Part shown: in pieces, positions 2,700 through 20,175 of the stretch
Layout of the letters: each line of letters begins with the position of its first letter
How positions within the stretch are numbered: position 1 is the first letter of the stretch
Sequence record: KY684082
Length of the DNA: 43,036 bases
DNA from: Shigella phage SFN6B
Strand: one strand, 5' to 3'
Position numbers and translations under genes: made by a program
The notes under the pieces: generated by a model
What the model saw: only the letters and a program-made list of their open reading frames with translations
The model's database searches: none
Told to the model about the DNA's origin: nothing

Positions 2700-2921
2700 A
2701 TGAAAGCAAAGATAATCCATCCGGGGCACGTACTCTGGCCCGTGTGGTGCAACCAAGTGCACCCAGAGTATAATTACACTGTGATGATATTCTCTGACCT
2801 AGATACTGATCAGGAATTCCCTTTAGACCTCGTTGATACTTATACCGAAACGGCGGCGCGCACTCTGCTGGACGCCGTGAATCTAGGTGTTATTACCGAC
2901 TGGAAGCAACTTTATGGCTAG
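2700..2921 (+). CDS. Hypothetical early protein (73 aa)
   Basis: ORF track 2688..2921; ATG at 2700 has GAGG upstream. Confidence 0.5.
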   Translation: MKAKIIHPGHVLWPVWCNQVHPEYNYTVMIFSDLDTDQEFPLDLVDTYTETAARTLLDAVNLGVITDWKQLYG

Positions 2922-3102
2922 TAAGTACGGGAAGAATCCTGAAACGCTGCTGATGCGTAGGCAGCAACCAACGATCGAGGGACTGGCGCGGGAGTACAGC
3001 GCGAAGGCAGCACTGCGTCAGCACTATGAGAAACAAGCGAAGCGCCTGGGTATGACCCTGCGCGGTTACTGTCAACGTTTTAATGTACGAGGTGTAGTAT
3101 GA
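2914..3102 (+). CDS. Hypothetical early protein (62 aa)
   Basis: ORF track 2887..3102 trimmed to the first ATG after the upstream gene (MASKYGKN...). Confidence 0.45.
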   Translation: MASKYGKNPETLLMRRQQPTIEGLAREYSAKAALRQHYEKQAKRLGMTLRGYCQRFNVRGVV

Positions 3103-3298: not shown

Positions 3299-3643
3299 AT
3301 GCTCACAGTAGACGAAACAGCGCTACTGTGTTGGCGCTTGCTAGAGACGCAAGGCAAGTGCGGCTGCAGTTGGGAAACATTCAAAGAGGTCCCTAATGAA
3401 CTCAAGCGAATCGTACCGGTCGAGCGTAGGCCCCTCCGAGTTCGTAAGCAGGATTCTACGGTGGTGCTCACCGCATACCGGGAGTATACAGAATCTGCCG
3501 CGCGGCAGTTGCAAGAGCACCTTGCATTCAATGTGGTTGCAGCGCTACGGCAGTATGGATATAGGGGAGCTTTTACGCGATTTAAAGCCGCAGTGCGAGC
3601 CTATTACAAGCAGCAACAACTCTCTGCGTGGTATGCACGCTGA
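3299..3643 (+). CDS. Hypothetical early protein (114 aa)
   Basis: ORF track; AAGGA Shine-Dalgarno upstream. Confidence 0.55.
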   Translation: MLTVDETALLCWRLLETQGKCGCSWETFKEVPNELKRIVPVERRPLRVRKQDSTVVLTAYREYTESAARQLQEHLAFNVVAALRQYGYRGAFTRFKAAVRAYYKQQQLSAWYAR

Positions 3644-3689
3644 ACTTTTAACGTATGATGAGATACTAGTAACACCGGAGACAAAGAAA

Positions 3690-5405
3690 ATGCAAGAGAC
3701 TAACAAAGTAAACGTAGATGCAAACGTACCTGCAAATGTACCTGCCTACGAGGGTTGGACCATCAAATTTCCAGAAGGGGCCAACGCTCTTCCGCTGAAG
3801 AAACAGATGTACTCTTCCGGGGATTACTGGTGCCAACTTCCCTACCTATCAACTCGAGGCCATGCGCGCGTGCAAAGTAACAAAACCCGTGCGCTTTTGA
3901 ATGGCATTTATATGTGGTCAAAGGTGCTGCCGGGATATATTGTAGCACTTGGCAACTTTACAGCTGCAGGAGAGGAGTTGAGTGTATATACTGGGCCGCT
4001 GGGAGCAGTTGATATTAGTGACACTCTCCTGCATAAGCTCCTTGACCGTGCAAGTACCTGCGACCGGGCATTCGGTTTATACAGCAGAACCTTCTATGAT
4101 GGCCCTGACGTAGTTACAGAGCGCGTAGTAGAGGCGGTGCAATACTTCACTGGATACAAGGTGCACAAACAGGCTATAGAGTTGTTCGAAGAGATTATGC
4201 TAGCACCTACGTACTCCCTCCGGGCCAAATACACTCGCGGCGCGTACAGTGAGCGTGATGGAGATTACTGGGCAGCAACCTTGCTTATGCAGTTGCACGG
4301 GTTCGTGGTGTCTAGGTTTGCAATCCCGCTGGGTTTTGGATTCCGAAACGGTGAGCCTGTAGTAATGCTGGGGCAGCCGCGACTACACAAAGATTATGCT
4401 GCAATTACCGAGTATCGCTGCGTGGAGATGCGCGTGGGTAAATGGCTTGCTAACTACTACGGTAGTGGGGTAGACTTCCGGGAATGTATTGAAGACCTCA
4501 AAGCTATGAATGTAGACCCAACCACGTATCTTTGTAAGACCGAAGAGGAGTGGTACAACGCATACGAGAAAGGCCCGCGTAGCTGCATGACCGGATACAA
4601 CTTCGAGTATAGCCCGGTGCGTGTATACGCTACGACGAGTCACGGCTTGCCGGATAATGGGCTGCGCTTGTTCATCCAGTATACCGGTGAACTTTTTGGC
4701 GACGACTTTAAAGTGCAAGCCCGCGCTATCGTTAACATCGAAACCAACGAATACGTCCGTGCATACGGAGATGCTGCGGACGCCATTCTACGTGCTAATG
4801 GGTATGAGCACGATACAGACTGCTTAGATGGCGCACTACTGGCACGCATTCCGCACCCAGAGAATGAAGGTGCCGTGCTTATGCCGTACTTAGACGGGAA
4901 TCAAGATGGCGTGGATGAAGAGGGGAATAATGCGTTCGTTATCTGCGACTGCTATGACTATGAAGCACAGGATGCTGACGGGTACATTTGGATTGATGAC
5001 GATCGCTGCGCTTGTACAGAGTGTGGGGAACGTTTCGACGAGGAGGACATGTACGTATCTTGTGACGGTGGTTATGTATGCTCGCACTGTATCGGTGATA
5101 CTTACGTACAGGTAGTGGGCCGCAGCGTAGTGTACCCATCATGGGATTGCTCATGGTCTGACTACCACGACTCTTGGGTACTTGACCAGGACGTAGCAGA
5201 TTGTGCTGTAGAGGGTACAGTGCATGATGAAGAGCCAATGGTGTGCGTACAAGGGTACAATGTTCTGAGTGTGCATGCCGAAGAGCACCCAGTGCACGGT
5301 ATGATTCTCACGGAGTATGCTGCGTCCGTATTGGATGAACCCTACCTCGGTAATGAAGAAGCCGAAGAAGACAAGGAAGCTAAAGCAGAACAGGAGGCAG
5401 CTTAA
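3690..5405 (+). CDS. Large early protein of unknown function (~571 aa) with C-terminal Cys-rich zinc-ribbon-like cluster and acidic tail
   Basis: ORF track 3396..5405; start moved to ATG 3690 (GGAG upstream; avoids overlap with 3299..3643); alternative ATG at 3633. Cys cluster CDCYDY...CACTECGERF...CDGGYVCSHC; C-terminus EEAEEDKEAKAEQEAA. Confidence 0.65.
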   Translation: MQETNKVNVDANVPANVPAYEGWTIKFPEGANALPLKKQMYSSGDYWCQLPYLSTRGHARVQSNKTRALLNGIYMWSKVLPGYIVALGNFTAAGEELSVYTGPLGAVDISDTLLHKLLDRASTCDRAFGLYSRTFYDGPDVVTERVVEAVQYFTGYKVHKQAIELFEEIMLAPTYSLRAKYTRGAYSERDGDYWAATLLMQLHGFVVSRFAIPLGFGFRNGEPVVMLGQPRLHKDYAAITEYRCVEMRVGKWLANYYGSGVDFRECIEDLKAMNVDPTTYLCKTEEEWYNAYEKGPRSCMTGYNFEYSPVRVYATTSHGLPDNGLRLFIQYTGELFGDDFKVQARAIVNIETNEYVRAYGDAADAILRANGYEHDTDCLDGALLARIPHPENEGAVLMPYLDGNQDGVDEEGNNAFVICDCYDYEAQDADGYIWIDDDRCACTECGERFDEEDMYVSCDGGYVCSHCIGDTYVQVVGRSVVYPSWDCSWSDYHDSWVLDQDVADCAVEGTVHDEEPMVCVQGYNVLSVHAEEHPVHGMILTEYAASVLDEPYLGNEEAEEDKEAKAEQEAA

Positions 5406-6439
5406 TGTATGGTGTTGACCTTAAACTACTGACAAAGATACTAACAACGCACCGACCTAGCTGGGGCAGTACCAAATGGTTTGAGCCGCTACTTAGTAGC
5501 GCTCTTGCTGGTGCAGAACACTACGTTAGGGACGCTCATGGTAACTACTTTGTGCTTATTGGTAACTCTGAACAGAGTGACGTAGCATTTACATCACACC
5601 TCGACACAGTGGCCCGGCCTGGTAGTGCTGCGCCAGACATTGCAATCACTAACAAGGGCATAATGTTCCTGCGGAATCCACAGGTGGCGGATTGTCTAGG
5701 TGCAGACTGCGGTGCTGGTATCTACCTGATGCTAGAGATGATTAGGCACGGTGTGCATGGGCGCTACTGCTTCTTCGTGGATGAGGAGGTAGGTTGTGAG
5801 GGCAGCAGAGCATCAGCCAAAGATGATACAGGGTTCTGGACTGGGGTCAAGGCGATGATTAGCTTCGACCGCCGGGGTGATGGTATCATTACGCATCAAC
5901 GGTACATGCGCTGCTGCTCTGATACGTTCGCAAAGGAACTAGCGGCCCGACTAGGACGAACGGAGGCGCACTTACAGAAGGGGGTATACACGGACTCCGC
6001 TGAGTTCGTAAGTATTATCCCAGAGTGCACTAACGTAGGCGTAGGGTACATGCACGAACATACACCAGACGAGGTGCTGGACTTAAACATCCTTGGTCAG
6101 GTACTGGAGCGTGTACTGCAAGCAGGCACATTCAAGCACCTACCGATTGAACGGGATCCAAAGGTAGTGGAACCGGATGCGTGGTTATCTGCCTCTGCGT
6201 ATCCTTTTGATATGTCACTAGATGTTCCCTATGCGGAAGACCCGCATTTACTTGCAGCATTCAAGGAGGTGTCACAGCTTTCTAAGCAGCAACTGATTAG
6301 TTGGGTATTGGATAACCCAGCAAGGGCGGCGGAGTACATCATGGTGTTCTCCGATTATGGCTTCAAAGAGGAACTGATTGAACTTGGCACCCGAGTTGTA
6401 GAGGACTGGGGTGGATACGAGAATATTGTGGAGGGTTGA
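5405..6439 (+). CDS. Putative MH-clan (M20/M28/M42-like) zinc metallopeptidase
   Basis: Ordered motifs matching the co-catalytic zinc peptidase pattern: SHLDTV (H-x-D), LGADCGAG (bridging Asp), FFVDEEVGCEGS (Glu-Glu), later Asp and His (MHEHT). Motif-level reading only. Confidence 0.5.
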   Translation: MYGVDLKLLTKILTTHRPSWGSTKWFEPLLSSALAGAEHYVRDAHGNYFVLIGNSEQSDVAFTSHLDTVARPGSAAPDIAITNKGIMFLRNPQVADCLGADCGAGIYLMLEMIRHGVHGRYCFFVDEEVGCEGSRASAKDDTGFWTGVKAMISFDRRGDGIITHQRYMRCCSDTFAKELAARLGRTEAHLQKGVYTDSAEFVSIIPECTNVGVGYMHEHTPDEVLDLNILGQVLERVLQAGTFKHLPIERDPKVVEPDAWLSASAYPFDMSLDVPYAEDPHLLAAFKEVSQLSKQQLISWVLDNPARAAEYIMVFSDYGFKEELIELGTRVVEDWGGYENIVEG

Positions 6440-6441
6440 TT

Positions 6442-6912
6442 ATGTCTAAGTTTAAAGTTGGTGATAAAGTTGTCCGCAAATCACCCGACGACAGTTCATC
6501 GTTTAAGAAGCACCAAGGGGATTTTGATTACTACACAGTTACAGATATGTCCCCAAGCGGCCACTGGCTGCAGTTGGACAACTTTACTATCGACGATGAC
6601 TATTACCCGTGGTGTGCAACTAACTTCGAGCTGTACCAAGAGCTGGACGACGAGCTGCCGCCTGCACCAACCTCAGTACTCTATTACCATAGCACTGCGG
6701 ATGCATATAACTTGCAGCATATGATCGTGCAACCACATTGGGAGTTAGAGGGACATCTCAGTATCGCTATCGTGAAGAGCGGTAAAAAGTTCGATCCCCT
6801 GGCTTACGGTGATGCATTATCCCTCAACCTGGAACCCGATGCAGCCTTGCAGTTGGCACATGACCTATGCCGCATGGCTATGGATATTAAACGTAAGGAG
6901 AAAGCACAGTGA
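6442..6912 (+). CDS. Hypothetical protein (156 aa)
   Basis: ORF track 6436..6912; ATG at 6442 preceded by GGAGGG. Confidence 0.6.
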   Translation: MSKFKVGDKVVRKSPDDSSSFKKHQGDFDYYTVTDMSPSGHWLQLDNFTIDDDYYPWCATNFELYQELDDELPPAPTSVLYYHSTADAYNLQHMIVQPHWELEGHLSIAIVKSGKKFDPLAYGDALSLNLEPDAALQLAHDLCRMAMDIKRKEKAQ

Positions 6913-7370
6913 AGTATGAGTACAACCCGGATACCGGGGAGATACTGCGCTATGGGAAACCGGTAGGGTCTAAGGACTCCTCCGGGTACCTGGTGGTGTG
7001 GGTGGATGGTAAGTGCTGGCGTGCCCACCGTCTGGCCTACCACCTACAAGGCTTGCCGGTACCTAGACAAGTGGACCACATTAATGGAATCAAAGATGAT
7101 AACCGGTGGGTCAACTTACGTGCAGCCACTAACTCTCAGAACCAGTACAACCGCAAAGGTTGTGCTGCATCAGGAAACCTAAAGGGCGCATACTACAACA
7201 AGGCTATGCGCAACTGGTACTCCCTAATTCGTGTAGGTGGTAAGCGTAAATACTTAGGCTCTTACCGTTCGGAAGCTGAGGCCCACGCAGCCTATGTAAA
7301 GGCCTCTCAACAAATGCACGAGGGGTTTGATGTATGGACGAGCCGTGGCTTAGAGCCTGCAAGCGCCTAG
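6909..7370 (+). CDS. HNH homing endonuclease (HNH plus AP2-like DNA-binding region), paralog 1
   Basis: VDHINGIKDDNRWVNLRAATNSQN HNH core; GTG start with AAGGAG upstream; paralogs at 13318, 24732 and 35743. Confidence 0.8.
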   Translation: MKYEYNPDTGEILRYGKPVGSKDSSGYLVVWVDGKCWRAHRLAYHLQGLPVPRQVDHINGIKDDNRWVNLRAATNSQNQYNRKGCAASGNLKGAYYNKAMRNWYSLIRVGGKRKYLGSYRSEAEAHAAYVKASQQMHEGFDVWTSRGLEPASA

Positions 7371-17706: not shown

Positions 17707-20175
17707 ATGATTAGCGCCCTGAATACGGTTGTAGTACCCGAGGAAGCACTGGTGGAACGCCAGTTGGAGCTTGAAGAGACTTACAAGATTCGCGGCATTG
17801 AACGTGCTCGCAAATTGATTACCGACGCTCTACAAAACGGCGGGATTATGAACCTGCCTATGACTCAGCGCATGCTAACCTCTGCGTACGACGTGGCCTC
17901 TGCAGCCATTGAGGAAATGCGTAACACCAAAGCCCCGGGTATTGGTGGAAAGTACCGCCGATTCCTACGCTTAGTCCCCTTGGATGTCCTAACTACTCTG
18001 AGCCTGTGCACAATGTTTGAGGCGTTCAGTGTTGCTCCTGGTGAGTCCGCCAGTCGCCGCCAAACAGCTCAGGCAGTGATGTCCGCTCTGGGTAGGAATG
18101 TACAGTCAGAGCTGCTGGCCCTACAACTACGTAATGTTGCCCCAGCGTATATGGACCGGGTATATGAATACCTCACTGAGCGCCGTACTAAGTCGCCTAC
18201 GCACATTCTGCGTACGCTCCGCGCCAGTGCTGAGAACGTGCACTATGGGCATGAGCCTTGGACCAACGCTCAGAATATTTCTGTGGGACGTCTGCTGTGT
18301 TCCGCAGTGTTTGAGACAGGGCTGTTCCAGTGGAAGACTGGTAGCGGGAACTTGAGTATGCTCTATCCCGCAGATAATGTTATGGAAGCATTTCAGCAGT
18401 TAGTGGAATCTGCTGACACTGTAACTATGAAGCCTCCGATGCTGGTGCCTCCGGTGCCACATACTACACTGTGGGATGGTGGCTACCTCACCCCAATAGA
18501 TAACCGTGGGACGTACCACAACTCACACATTGACCGCGCCAGACTGCGTGAAGTAGCGGAAGCATTTAAGTCTGCGGACGGTATCAAGAAGGCACTTAAT
18601 AAGGCGCAGGAAACTCCTTATCGCATTAATAAGCGAATACTGGAACTGGTACAAGAAGCACGGGCCTTAGGTATTGGTGTAGGTATGCCGCGCTCAGTGC
18701 CAGAGCCGAAACCTGAGTGGTACTTAGATGGTGTACCAAAAGAGAATTACACCGAGGAGGAACTCGACCGCTTCGGAGAGTGGAAGACGCGTATGTCCTT
18801 ATGGTACAGCGCAGACCGTAAGCGTGTGTCACAATTACGTAGCCTATTGACCACGCTAGAGATGGCAGAGGAATTCAAAGATGAGAAAGCCCTGTACTTC
18901 CCAACCTGTGTGGATTGGCGGTACCGGCTGTACTTCAAGTCCTCACTGCACCCCCAAGGTTCTGATTTGCAGAAGGCACTTCTTGAATTCGGACGAGGTA
19001 AACCTCTGGGAGAGAGAGGGTTATTCTGGCTTAAAGTGCACGTCGCTACCTGCTTTGGTTATGACAAAACCCTATTCGAAGACCGTGCAGCTTGGGTTGA
19101 TGCAAACTTTGCAGAGATTGAGCAGCTCGCGGATTCCCCTTTTGATTGCCCTGCTTTTACCTCCGCTGACAGCCCTTGGTGCTTCCTGGCAGCCGCTATT
19201 GACTTGGTTAATGCTGTACGTTCTGGATGCCCAGAAGAGTACATTAGCCGAATCCCGGTTGCTATGGATGCTACAAACTCAGGTGGGCAGCACCTCTCAG
19301 CGCTCCTGAGAGACCCTGTAGGCGGACGCCTGACGAACCTGTACTGGGAGGGTAACGACAAGAAAGCGGATCTGTATATGGACGTGAAGCGCCGTACGGA
19401 CGAGAAGGTGATACTGGACCTGGACAAAGAGGATTTCGTTATCCAGAGCACGTACTGGAGAGAGAACGAAATCACTCGAAGCATGACCAAGCGTCCTAGC
19501 ATGACCTACTTCTACAGCGCCACGGTGCGCAGCTGCAGCGACTATATCTTTGCCGGGGCCTGTGAAGAGGGGTATGAAGGAACGGATACGCACAGTCTTT
19601 GGAACCTTTCCTGCTACCTGGCTCCCAGAATGCGCAGTGCTATTGAGGAAGCTAACCCGGCAGCAGCAGCAGCTATGGGGTATCTGCAGAACCTCGCTAG
19701 GCGTGTACCTGCTAGTCAGCATCTGCAGTGGAAGACTCCGCTAGGTGGGCTGGTGATGAACCGGTACTCTCAGCGAGAGGAGGTACGTGTACGTATTGAC
19801 TGCATGAACCTGTCCGCCGTGCTGGTACACAACCGTGACTTTAAGACCTGTAATAAGCGCAAGGCCGCCTCTGGTATTGCCCCGAACTTTGTACATAGTC
19901 TGGATAGTACGCACTTGATGATGGTACTCTGTGCGGCAGAAGGTCTGGATATTGTCCCGATTCACGATTCGATGGCGACTCACGCGGCTGATGTAGATGC
20001 CCTGCACCGACATATCCGTGAACAGTTTGTGAAGCTGTACGAGGAGCACGATCTTCTGGGGGATATTACCAGGGCAGCTGCCGAAGCAGGGGCAGACCTG
20101 ACGGACCTGGATATGCCTGCGGTTGGTACTTTGGACATTCGGCAAGTGCTAGAATCTCCGTTCTTCTTTTCATAA
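17707..20175 (+). CDS. Single-subunit DNA-directed RNA polymerase (T7-like)
   Basis: 822 aa; motifs VAMDATNSGGQH, RSMTKRPSMTYFYSA, APNFVHSLDSTH, PIHDSMATHA parallel T7 RNAP motifs A, B and C; GGAG upstream. Confidence 0.95.
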   Translation: MISALNTVVVPEEALVERQLELEETYKIRGIERARKLITDALQNGGIMNLPMTQRMLTSAYDVASAAIEEMRNTKAPGIGGKYRRFLRLVPLDVLTTLSLCTMFEAFSVAPGESASRRQTAQAVMSALGRNVQSELLALQLRNVAPAYMDRVYEYLTERRTKSPTHILRTLRASAENVHYGHEPWTNAQNISVGRLLCSAVFETGLFQWKTGSGNLSMLYPADNVMEAFQQLVESADTVTMKPPMLVPPVPHTTLWDGGYLTPIDNRGTYHNSHIDRARLREVAEAFKSADGIKKALNKAQETPYRINKRILELVQEARALGIGVGMPRSVPEPKPEWYLDGVPKENYTEEELDRFGEWKTRMSLWYSADRKRVSQLRSLLTTLEMAEEFKDEKALYFPTCVDWRYRLYFKSSLHPQGSDLQKALLEFGRGKPLGERGLFWLKVHVATCFGYDKTLFEDRAAWVDANFAEIEQLADSPFDCPAFTSADSPWCFLAAAIDLVNAVRSGCPEEYISRIPVAMDATNSGGQHLSALLRDPVGGRLTNLYWEGNDKKADLYMDVKRRTDEKVILDLDKEDFVIQSTYWRENEITRSMTKRPSMTYFYSATVRSCSDYIFAGACEEGYEGTDTHSLWNLSCYLAPRMRSAIEEANPAAAAAMGYLQNLARRVPASQHLQWKTPLGGLVMNRYSQREEVRVRIDCMNLSAVLVHNRDFKTCNKRKAASGIAPNFVHSLDSTHLMMVLCAAEGLDIVPIHDSMATHAADVDALHRHIREQFVKLYEEHDLLGDITRAAAEAGADLTDLDMPAVGTLDIRQVLESPFFFS

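What the first reader, a model, noticed from the sequence alone, without database searches (positions are those of the whole stretch)
3690..5405. Large early protein with Cys-rich zinc-ribbon-like cluster and acidic tail, function unknown
At ~571 aa this is unusually large for the early region of a T7-like phage, and I recognise no polymerase, kinase, nuclease or methyltransferase motifs in it. The C-terminal third carries C-x-C...C-x-C-x2-C...C...C-x2-C spacing typical of zinc ribbons, then an acidic tail EEAEEDKEAKAEQEAA. Early-expressed, metal-binding and acidic is the profile of host-takeover or anti-defence proteins.
Basis: partly seen in the sequence, partly recalled or inferred. Interest (0 to 1): 0.7.

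Follow-up and report, generated by a model that had tools for sequence, protein, structure and literature searches.

The report
Uncharacterised phage protein partnered with peptidase
This is a real, conserved 571-residue protein of a Klebsiella KP34-like phage from a large family with no assigned function; it has a weakly acetyltransferase-like core, an invariant cysteine and a zinc ribbon, and it nearly always sits next to a zinc peptidase gene, so the two probably work as one unit of unknown activity.

Summary
ORF 3690..5405 is a genuine 571-aa gene with the stated Cys pattern and acidic tail. The window is a complete KP34-like (Drulisvirus) phage genome, not a T7-like one.

Only four of the cysteines form the conserved C4 zinc ribbon: C442/C445 and C464/C467, kept in 62-64 of 66 diverse relatives. 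It has invariant S298-C299-M300, R345 and D402.

The main result is synteny. In 49 of 52 loci, down to 25% identity and in unrelated phage types, the gene lies directly upstream of an M28-type di-zinc peptidase with an intact active site. In the window the two genes overlap (TAATG).

Best reading: the protein is the larger partner of a two-protein phage enzyme module that acts on a peptide or protein substrate early in infection. The activity is unknown. Anti-defence and host takeover are neither shown nor excluded. Interest is moderate.

The parts
3677..3680 (+). Shine-Dalgarno GGAG of the target gene, 9 nt before ATG 3690
   Evidence: read directly from the sequence
3690..5405 (+). Target CDS: 571 aa plus stop; pI 4.5, net charge -49
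   Evidence: member of phrog_6980, function unknown
3690..4109 (+). Fast-evolving N-terminal region (aa 1-140), modelled with low confidence
   Evidence: pLDDT below 50. 34% identity within Drulisvirus. Only 42% of substitutions fall on codon position 3.
4110..4310 (+). Helical region, aa 141-207
   Evidence: AF2 secondary structure; 61% identity within the genus
4311..4949 (+). Conserved core, aa 208-420: a three-stranded sheet and two helices, then a GNAT-like alpha/beta unit. Carries R345, R357, Y359, G360, P399, Y400 and D402.
4581..4589 (+). Codons of the Ser298-Cys299-Met300 motif. Ser and Cys are invariant; Met is kept in 65 of 66 in the first set and in all 74 of the second.
   Evidence: S and C 66 of 66, M 65 of 66 in alignment A2. 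S, C and M are all invariant in 74 further members. The motif is kept as 'sSCM' in the sister family.
5007..5099 (+). C4 zinc ribbon, aa 440-470: C442-x2-C445 ... C464-x2-C467
   Evidence: The four Cys are kept in 62-64 of 66. Beta hairpins in the AF2 models. The family profile matches zinc fingers in the PDB.
5100..5324 (+). Acidic, beta-hairpin-rich C-terminal domain, aa 471-545
   Evidence: AF2 strands at aa 472-540 with pLDDT above 90; net charge -12
5325..5402 (+). Acidic helical tail, aa 546-571
   Evidence: It is out of frame in the Kpn13 record.
5393..5407 (+). GGAGG (5393-5397) and the TAATG stop/start overlap (5403-5407): junction with the peptidase gene, compatible with translational coupling
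   Evidence: read directly from the sequence
5405..6439 (+). Partner gene: M28-type di-zinc peptidase, 344 aa. Predicted ligands H65, D101, E128, D155, H219; also D67 and E127.
   Evidence: Pfam Peptidase_M28 at 23.4 bits against a cut-off of 21.3. phrog_4191 'peptidase'. Weak match to PepT. Ligands kept in 46 of 47 unique homologues. Adjacent to the target's homologue in 49 of 52 loci.
3299..3643 (+). Upstream 114-aa gene (phrog_6167). It overlaps the spurious 5' extension of the target ORF.

Best explanation
The protein is the larger component of a conserved two-gene phage module. Its partner is the M28-type di-zinc exopeptidase encoded immediately downstream.

Shown:
- The gene is real and under purifying selection.
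- It carries a conserved core (aa 208-420) with invariant Ser298-Cys299, Arg345 and Asp402, followed by a C4 zinc ribbon.
- The gene pair travels together across unrelated phage lineages. In the window the two genes share a TAATG stop/start overlap.
- The peptidase keeps a complete metal site.

Inferred:
- The two proteins act together, probably as a complex, on a peptide or protein substrate in the infected cell. The time is the host-RNA-polymerase-transcribed early or middle phase.
- The conserved residues would line the canonical cleft of a GNAT-like fold. This is inferred from the order of secondary-structure elements, because model coordinates could not be inspected. They would form a catalytic or substrate-binding site, with Cys299 a candidate nucleophile for acyl or peptidyl transfer or hydrolysis.
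- The peptidase would carry out the adjacent hydrolytic step.
- The fast-evolving N-terminus, the ribbon surface and the acidic C-terminus would adapt the module to host-specific targets.
For: Gene reality. A homologue was detected by LC-MS/MS (PMC7291057).

Family size and lack of annotation: 503 clusters at 50% identity. None of 140 diverse members has a Pfam domain.

Invariant residues.

Synteny with the peptidase:
- 43 of 43 informative loci among the first 44 fetched, including unrelated phage types.
- 3 of 4 further metagenomic loci.
- 2 Mesorhizobium assemblies.
- Identical record counts in GenBank phages: Klebsiella 232 and 232, Vibrio 42 and 42, Escherichia 10 and 10.
- Adjacency is kept, with a different gene order, in a sister family in Cellulophaga phage phi38:1 and in a megaphage.

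Junction between the genes: the TAATG overlap, with the peptidase's GGAGG inside the tail codons.

Peptidase active site kept in 46 of 47 unique homologues.

Mosaic conservation: core 79-89% identity against N-terminus 34%.
Against: - No activity, interaction or phenotype has been measured for any family member.
- GNAT helix alpha-4 is not predicted. Motif A is only half present and is followed by a conserved Asp, so acyl-CoA use is doubtful.
- No invariant His, Lys or Glu accompanies Cys299, so no textbook cysteine-hydrolase triad is present.
- Three loci lack an adjacent peptidase (L047, L058, L059).
- Related peptidases occur alone in Thermus and Bacillus phages, so the peptidase does not need this partner.
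- The Pseudomonas and Pectobacterium lineages lack the zinc ribbon.
Confidence: 0.45

Rival explanations
1. Non-catalytic adaptor or regulator. The protein has an enzyme-like fold but no chemistry of its own. It binds the peptidase and either recruits host proteins to it or gates its activity. This is comparable to PanZ, a GNAT-fold protein that regulates PanD.
Against: Ser, Cys, Arg and Asp stay invariant across relatives with under 25% identity, which is more typical of a catalytic or ligand site than of an interface. The peptidase works without this partner in other phages.
Confidence: 0.2
2. Stand-alone anti-defence or host-takeover inhibitor. An acidic, possibly DNA-mimicking, zinc-binding protein blocks a restriction or defence nuclease or another basic host protein.
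For: pI 4.5 and net charge -49, all of it within aa 278-571. Early genomic position. The fast-evolving N-terminus is compatible with an arms race.
Confidence: 0.12
3. Particle-associated protein that is packaged and delivered with the DNA, so that it acts at the very start of infection.
For: In the Drulisvirus fHe-Kpn01, the homologue g12, the peptidase g13 and g14 were found by LC-MS/MS in gradient-purified particles. Primase, helicase and DNA polymerase were not (PMC7291057 Table S2).
Against: 29 of 56 gene products were detected after only ultrafiltration and a glycerol step gradient, so carry-over of abundant or large complexes is likely. The gene lies in the early region, far from the structural module. 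SDS-PAGE band assignments for KP34-like virions in PMC4411677 name no band for it.
Confidence: 0.1
4. Accessory factor of phage DNA replication.
For: The gene always lies just upstream of the primase/helicase/DNA polymerase block. In L047 a short form sits between primase and helicase. It has a zinc ribbon.
Against: The protein is strongly acidic, and the ribbon region has 2 basic against 15 acidic residues, which makes nucleic-acid binding unlikely. There is no similarity to any replication protein. This reading does not explain the partnership with a peptidase.
Confidence: 0.05

Closest known systems
GNAT / acyl-CoA N-acyltransferase fold superfamily (includes FemA, MprF, ATE1, PanZ)
C4 zinc ribbon / treble-clef zinc fingers
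   Same: Two CxxC knuckles 18 residues apart on beta hairpins. They are conserved family-wide, and the profile matches RING, LIM and Rubicon zinc sites.
   Different: The region is acidic rather than basic. It is absent from the Corkvirinae homologues. The extra cysteines around it are not conserved.
PcfJ-like proteins (Pfam PF14284) of conjugative elements
   Same: By eye, PcfJ of pCF10 has helix-'HCVGS..Y'-beta-meander, resembling helix-'SCMTG..Y'-beta-meander here. There are two weak Foldseek hits, E 0.15-0.28.
   Different: No Pfam hit. hhalign probability is 0.3%. The PcfJ profile used had low diversity, so a very remote relation is not excluded.
Clan MH metallopeptidases (M28 aminopeptidases, M20 PepT/DapE): family of the partner gene
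   Same: The partner passes the Pfam M28 threshold, keeps all di-zinc ligands and resembles PepT. HHpred gave DapE at 99.8% for the fHe-Kpn01 homologue (PMC7291057 Table S2).
   Different: It is a phage-specific branch (phrog_4191) with a variable C-terminal extension. Its substrate is unknown. None of the papers read here describes a clan MH peptidase paired with a protein like this one.

Membership tests
GNAT acyltransferase superfamily | Sequence-profile match to an acetyltransferase family | tested here: not met
   No Pfam or NCBIfam hit for the protein or for 140 relatives. No PDB sequence hit to the core.
GNAT acyltransferase superfamily | Fold b1-a1-a2-b2-b3-b4-a3-b5-a4-b6-b7 | tested here: inconclusive
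GNAT acyltransferase superfamily | Motif A [QR]-x-x-G-x-[GA] at b4/a3, which binds the CoA pyrophosphate | tested here: not met
   R357 is kept in 58 of 66 and G360 in 59 of 66. Position 362 is E/S/N/D/A, and position 361 is Asp or Asn in 54 of 66.
GNAT acyltransferase superfamily | Acyl-CoA-dependent (or aminoacyl-tRNA-dependent) transfer activity | not testable with these tools
   Needs biochemistry.
C4 zinc ribbon | Two CxxC knuckles on beta hairpins, conserved across the family | tested here: met
   C442/C445 and C464/C467 are kept in 62-64 of 66. Hairpins in the AF2 models. Profile hits to zinc fingers. Absent from two lineages.
C4 zinc ribbon | Bound zinc | not testable with these tools
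   Needs metal analysis.
PcfJ-like (PF14284) | Match to the PcfJ profile | tested here: not met
   No Pfam hit. hhalign of the core alignment against a PcfJ alignment gave probability 0.3%.
M28/M20 clan MH peptidase (partner gene 5405..6439) | Profile match plus the H, D, E-E, D, H di-zinc site | tested here: met
   Pfam M28 at 23.4 bits against a cut-off of 21.3. H65, D67, D101, E127, E128, D155 and H219 are kept in 46 of 47.
Known defence or anti-defence proteins (Ocr/ArdA-type DNA mimics, PADLOC families) | Sequence or fold similarity to a described member | tested here: not met

The most novel reading that the evidence does not exclude
The pair is a new kind of phage-encoded protein-remodelling system. 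The exopeptidase would trim host (or phage) protein N-termini or peptides. The Cys-dependent GNAT-like partner would transfer or remove an acyl or aminoacyl group on the trimmed product. The result could be, for example, a created or destroyed degradation signal, or a disabled defence protein. The module might also be carried in the virion so that it acts at once.
Probability: 0.12. Interest if true: 0.8.

Novelty: new variant of a known kind. Interest (0 to 1): 0.55.

Why it matters
The family is widespread: 503 clusters at 50% identity. It was found in 232 Klebsiella phage records, most at about 60% identity or more, as expected for KP34-like relatives. It also occurs in Vibrio, Pectobacterium, Pseudomonas and Escherichia/Shigella phage records, in uncultured-phage contigs, and as a sister branch in megaphages. 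These Klebsiella phages are among the most used candidates for phage therapy, and this is their largest gene of unknown function before the replication block.

A gene pair that stays linked across unrelated phage lineages, each member with an intact-looking active site, points to a discrete biochemical activity that is not in any annotation resource. If the activity is found, about 400 'hypothetical protein' and 'peptidase' annotations in GenBank phages alone could be replaced. It might also reveal a new way for phages to manipulate host proteins.

If the protein turns out to be an ordinary accessory factor, the practical gains are smaller:
- a corrected gene start (571 aa rather than about 665 aa);
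- a domain definition suitable for a new Pfam entry.

Tried and rejected
- Sequence libraries. Pfam, NCBIfam, PADLOC and phmmer or profile searches against PDB sequences gave nothing for the core. Only generic zinc-finger matches appeared.
- Fused known domains. None of 140 diverse family members has any Pfam domain.
- Plasmids. tblastn of the core against 72,556 plasmids found no match.
- PcfJ lead. This came from memory plus two weak Foldseek hits. I fetched pCF10 PcfJ, confirmed PF14284 and built an alignment. hhalign gave probability 0.3%, so the lead is rejected. The caveat is the low diversity of the PcfJ profile.
- AlphaFold database fold libraries were not available.
- The 669-aa long form is rejected by the codon-position analysis.
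- Conserved third partner. The 114-aa gene upstream and the 158-aa gene downstream are shared only within the KP34-like supergroup. They are absent from the distant loci.
- Literature. Eight searches and six papers give no functional statement. The only experimental datum is the LC-MS/MS detection in fHe-Kpn01. Because of that detection, the homologue was left out of that paper's toxicity screen.
- Bacterial genomes. The scan found only 5 loci, all in Alphaproteobacteria assemblies. The search pattern was narrow, so this says little about true distribution.

Full report
**What the window is.** All long ORFs are on the + strand. The genome order runs as follows:
- small early genes;
- the target gene;
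- an M28 peptidase;
- Toprim primase, DnaB-like helicase and family A DNA polymerase;
- a single-subunit RNA polymerase at 17707..20175;
- T7-type terminase and a tailspike.

That is the KP34/phiKMV architecture, not the T7 one. The closest GenBank records are Drulisvirus phages. Klebsiella phage Kpn13 has a 100% identical peptidase, and phages Hope and KPV811 have target homologues at 88-89% identity.

**The observation.** ORF 3690..5405 gives 571 aa, with a GGAG 9 nt upstream of the ATG.

The frame stays open back to ATG 3396, and many database entries use a 664-669-aa form. In 3396-3643, however, substitutions against 18 related loci fall on the third codon position of the overlapping 114-aa gene 3299..3643 (511, against 253 and 199 at the other two positions). 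They do not follow the extension's frame. That 114-aa gene matches phrog_6167 end to end. The long form is therefore an annotation artefact.

Within the true ORF, the share of substitutions at position 3 is 0.74 in the core but only 0.42 in the first 140 codons.

**No match to described families.**
- Pfam, NCBIfam and PADLOC give nothing, and the PDB sequence search gives nothing significant.
- PHROGs places the protein in phrog_6980, function unknown.
- 319 GenBank phage records encode a homologue; wherever the matched region is annotated, the label is 'hypothetical protein' or 'unknown function'.
- An exhaustive HMMER search finds 503 clusters at 50% identity. The shared region is aa ~240-480.
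- None of 140 diverse members carries any Pfam domain.

**Anatomy.** Alignments of 66 and 74 diverse relatives (20-46% identity to the window protein in the first set) give these conservation levels:
- Invariant: S298, C299, R345, D402 and G431 in the first set. In the second set the Ser-Cys-Met motif, two Tyr and the Asp are invariant, and the Arg and that Gly are kept in at least 90%.
- At least 90% conserved in the first set: Y292, M300, Y313, Y359, L367, G371, P399, Y400, and the four cysteines C442, C445, C464 and C467.

The Pseudomonas and Pectobacterium (Corkvirinae) homologues lack the CxxC pairs altogether.

AlphaFold2 gives pLDDT 77.8 for the whole protein, with aa 1-137 unstructured or uncertain. 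A model of aa 205-480 alone reaches pLDDT 91.4. The parts, in order, are:
- a low-confidence N-terminus;
- a helical segment;
- a three-stranded sheet with two helices;
- an alpha/beta unit;
- the zinc ribbon;
- a run of short hairpins;
- an acidic helix.

The protein has pI 4.5 and net charge -49, all of it within aa 278-571.

Within Drulisvirus the conservation is mosaic. For comparison, the peptidase is about 82% identical in the same phages.

| Region | Identity |
|---|---|
| N-terminus | 34% |
| Core | 79-89% |
| Ribbon region (Cys kept) | 38% |
| C-terminal domain | 60% |

The order of predicted elements at aa 278-400 fits the GNAT order, but alpha-4 is missing. R357-x-x-G360 lies where GNAT motif A sits. 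It is followed by a conserved Asp rather than G/A.

I therefore call the core 'GNAT-like in topology' and do not file it as a GNAT.

Foldseek against viral models finds 16 significant hits, all uncharacterised phage proteins. A resemblance to PcfJ ('HCVGS..Y' against 'SCMTG..Y') did not survive a profile-profile test.

**The partner.** This is the main new result. I used tblastn of the target and of the downstream peptidase on every locus fetched.
- Among the first 44 loci fetched (L001-L044), all 43 with downstream DNA have the peptidase homologue within a few hundred bases of the target homologue. This holds even where the target homologue is only 25% identical and the phage has a different portal and terminase.
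- Three of four further metagenomic loci show the same, as do two Mesorhizobium assemblies.
- The exceptions are L047, L058 and the fragment L059. L047 is a 378-aa short form lying between primase and helicase.

The total is 49 of 52 loci. Some of these are duplicates of the same genome.

In GenBank phages the record counts coincide: Klebsiella 232 and 232, Vibrio 42 and 42, Escherichia 10 and 10.

A more distant sister family keeps the 'sSCM' and 'GRA' motifs. It lies next to the peptidase in a different gene order in Cellulophaga phage phi38:1 and in a 735-kb megaphage.

Related peptidases stand alone in Thermus P23-45-like and Bacillus phages. The dependence therefore looks one-sided.

In the window the two genes overlap as TAATG. 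The peptidase's GGAGG lies inside the codons of the acidic tail.

The peptidase passes the Pfam M28 threshold. It keeps H65, D67, D101, E127, E128, D155 and H219 in 46 of 47 unique homologues.

**Experimental data in the literature.** Papers on KP34-like and PhiM1-like phages list the protein as hypothetical and only its neighbour as 'putative peptidase' (PMC3082699, PMC4411677, PMC6115819).

For the Drulisvirus fHe-Kpn01, Table S2 of PMC7291057 reports three points:
- HHpred gave 'no significant hits' for the homologue g12 and DapE (99.8%) for g13.
- g12, g13 and g14 were detected by LC-MS/MS in gradient-purified particles.
- Primase, helicase and DNA polymerase were not detected.

Because g12 was detected in particles, it was excluded from that paper's toxicity screen. 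The detection proves expression. It does not prove packaging, because 29 of 56 gene products were detected after a mild purification.

**Interpretation.** The best-supported statement is that this protein and the peptidase form one functional module.

Its chemistry is inferred only. The invariant Ser-Cys, Arg, Asp and Tyr residues fall on elements that would surround the canonical cleft in a GNAT-like fold. That suggests a catalytic or substrate site, with Cys299 a possible nucleophile. There is no accompanying invariant His, Lys or Glu, and no intact CoA motif.

None is excluded. The adaptor and packaged readings could hold alongside the module model.

**Verdict.** The feature is real and the zinc ribbon is real. 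The 'anti-defence' reading is untested. The protein belongs to a large family absent from the annotation libraries searched, built from recognisable parts and tied to a peptidase. It is a good, tractable target for experiment, of moderate rather than exceptional interest on present evidence.

Noticed in passing
window 3396-3689: The in-frame 5' extension of the target ORF is used in many public annotations (664-669 aa). It is not coding in that frame. The overlapping 114-aa gene 3299..3643 is the one under codon-level constraint.
   Followed up: yes
window 5393-5407: The stop of the target and the start of the peptidase overlap as TAATG. The peptidase's GGAGG lies within the last codons of the acidic tail, so part of the tail sequence is also constrained as a ribosome-binding site.
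   Followed up: yes
L053 (Klebsiella phage Kpn13, OQ790081) ~5300-5414, corresponding to window ~5330: The closest GenBank relative has a 1-nt deletion that replaces the acidic tail with a basic one and makes the CDS overlap the peptidase by 14 nt. Either this is a sequencing error or the tail is dispensable.
   Followed up: partly
window 6909-7370: An HNH_3 homing-endonuclease ORF (153 aa) overlaps the start of the primase ORF (7334). The Kpn13 record has only a short hypothetical gene at that place and an HNH gene elsewhere, so this looks like a mobile insertion.
   Followed up: partly
window 6436-6912: A 158-aa gene (phrog_4317) follows the peptidase. Its fHe-Kpn01 homologue g14 was co-detected in particles with g12 and g13, and had a weak HHpred hit to R67-type DHFR (PMC7291057). 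It is conserved only within the KP34-like supergroup.
   Followed up: partly
L050 5913-7241 (Cellulophaga phage phi38:1 gp037); L052 3424-4875 and 1166-2380 (megaphage LR756503): This is a distant sister family of the core domain. It keeps the 'sSCM' and 'GRA' motifs and lies next to the peptidase in another gene order. It has no Pfam or PHROG match. The two megaphage records show 5 and 8 peptidase matches.
   Followed up: partly
L047 2119-3255: A 378-aa short form of the family sits between a Toprim primase and a DnaB-like helicase, with no peptidase on the 4.2-kb contig.
   Followed up: partly
window 2887-3102: A small early ORF matches Pfam DUF7267 (E 8e-28). It is conserved across Drulisvirus, Bucovirus, Maculvirus and Kotilavirus loci.
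   Followed up: no
L055, L056 (Mesorhizobium assemblies): The gene pair also occurs in a few alphaproteobacterial genome assemblies, one on a 205-kb contig. It may be a prophage or a co-assembled phage.
   Followed up: no
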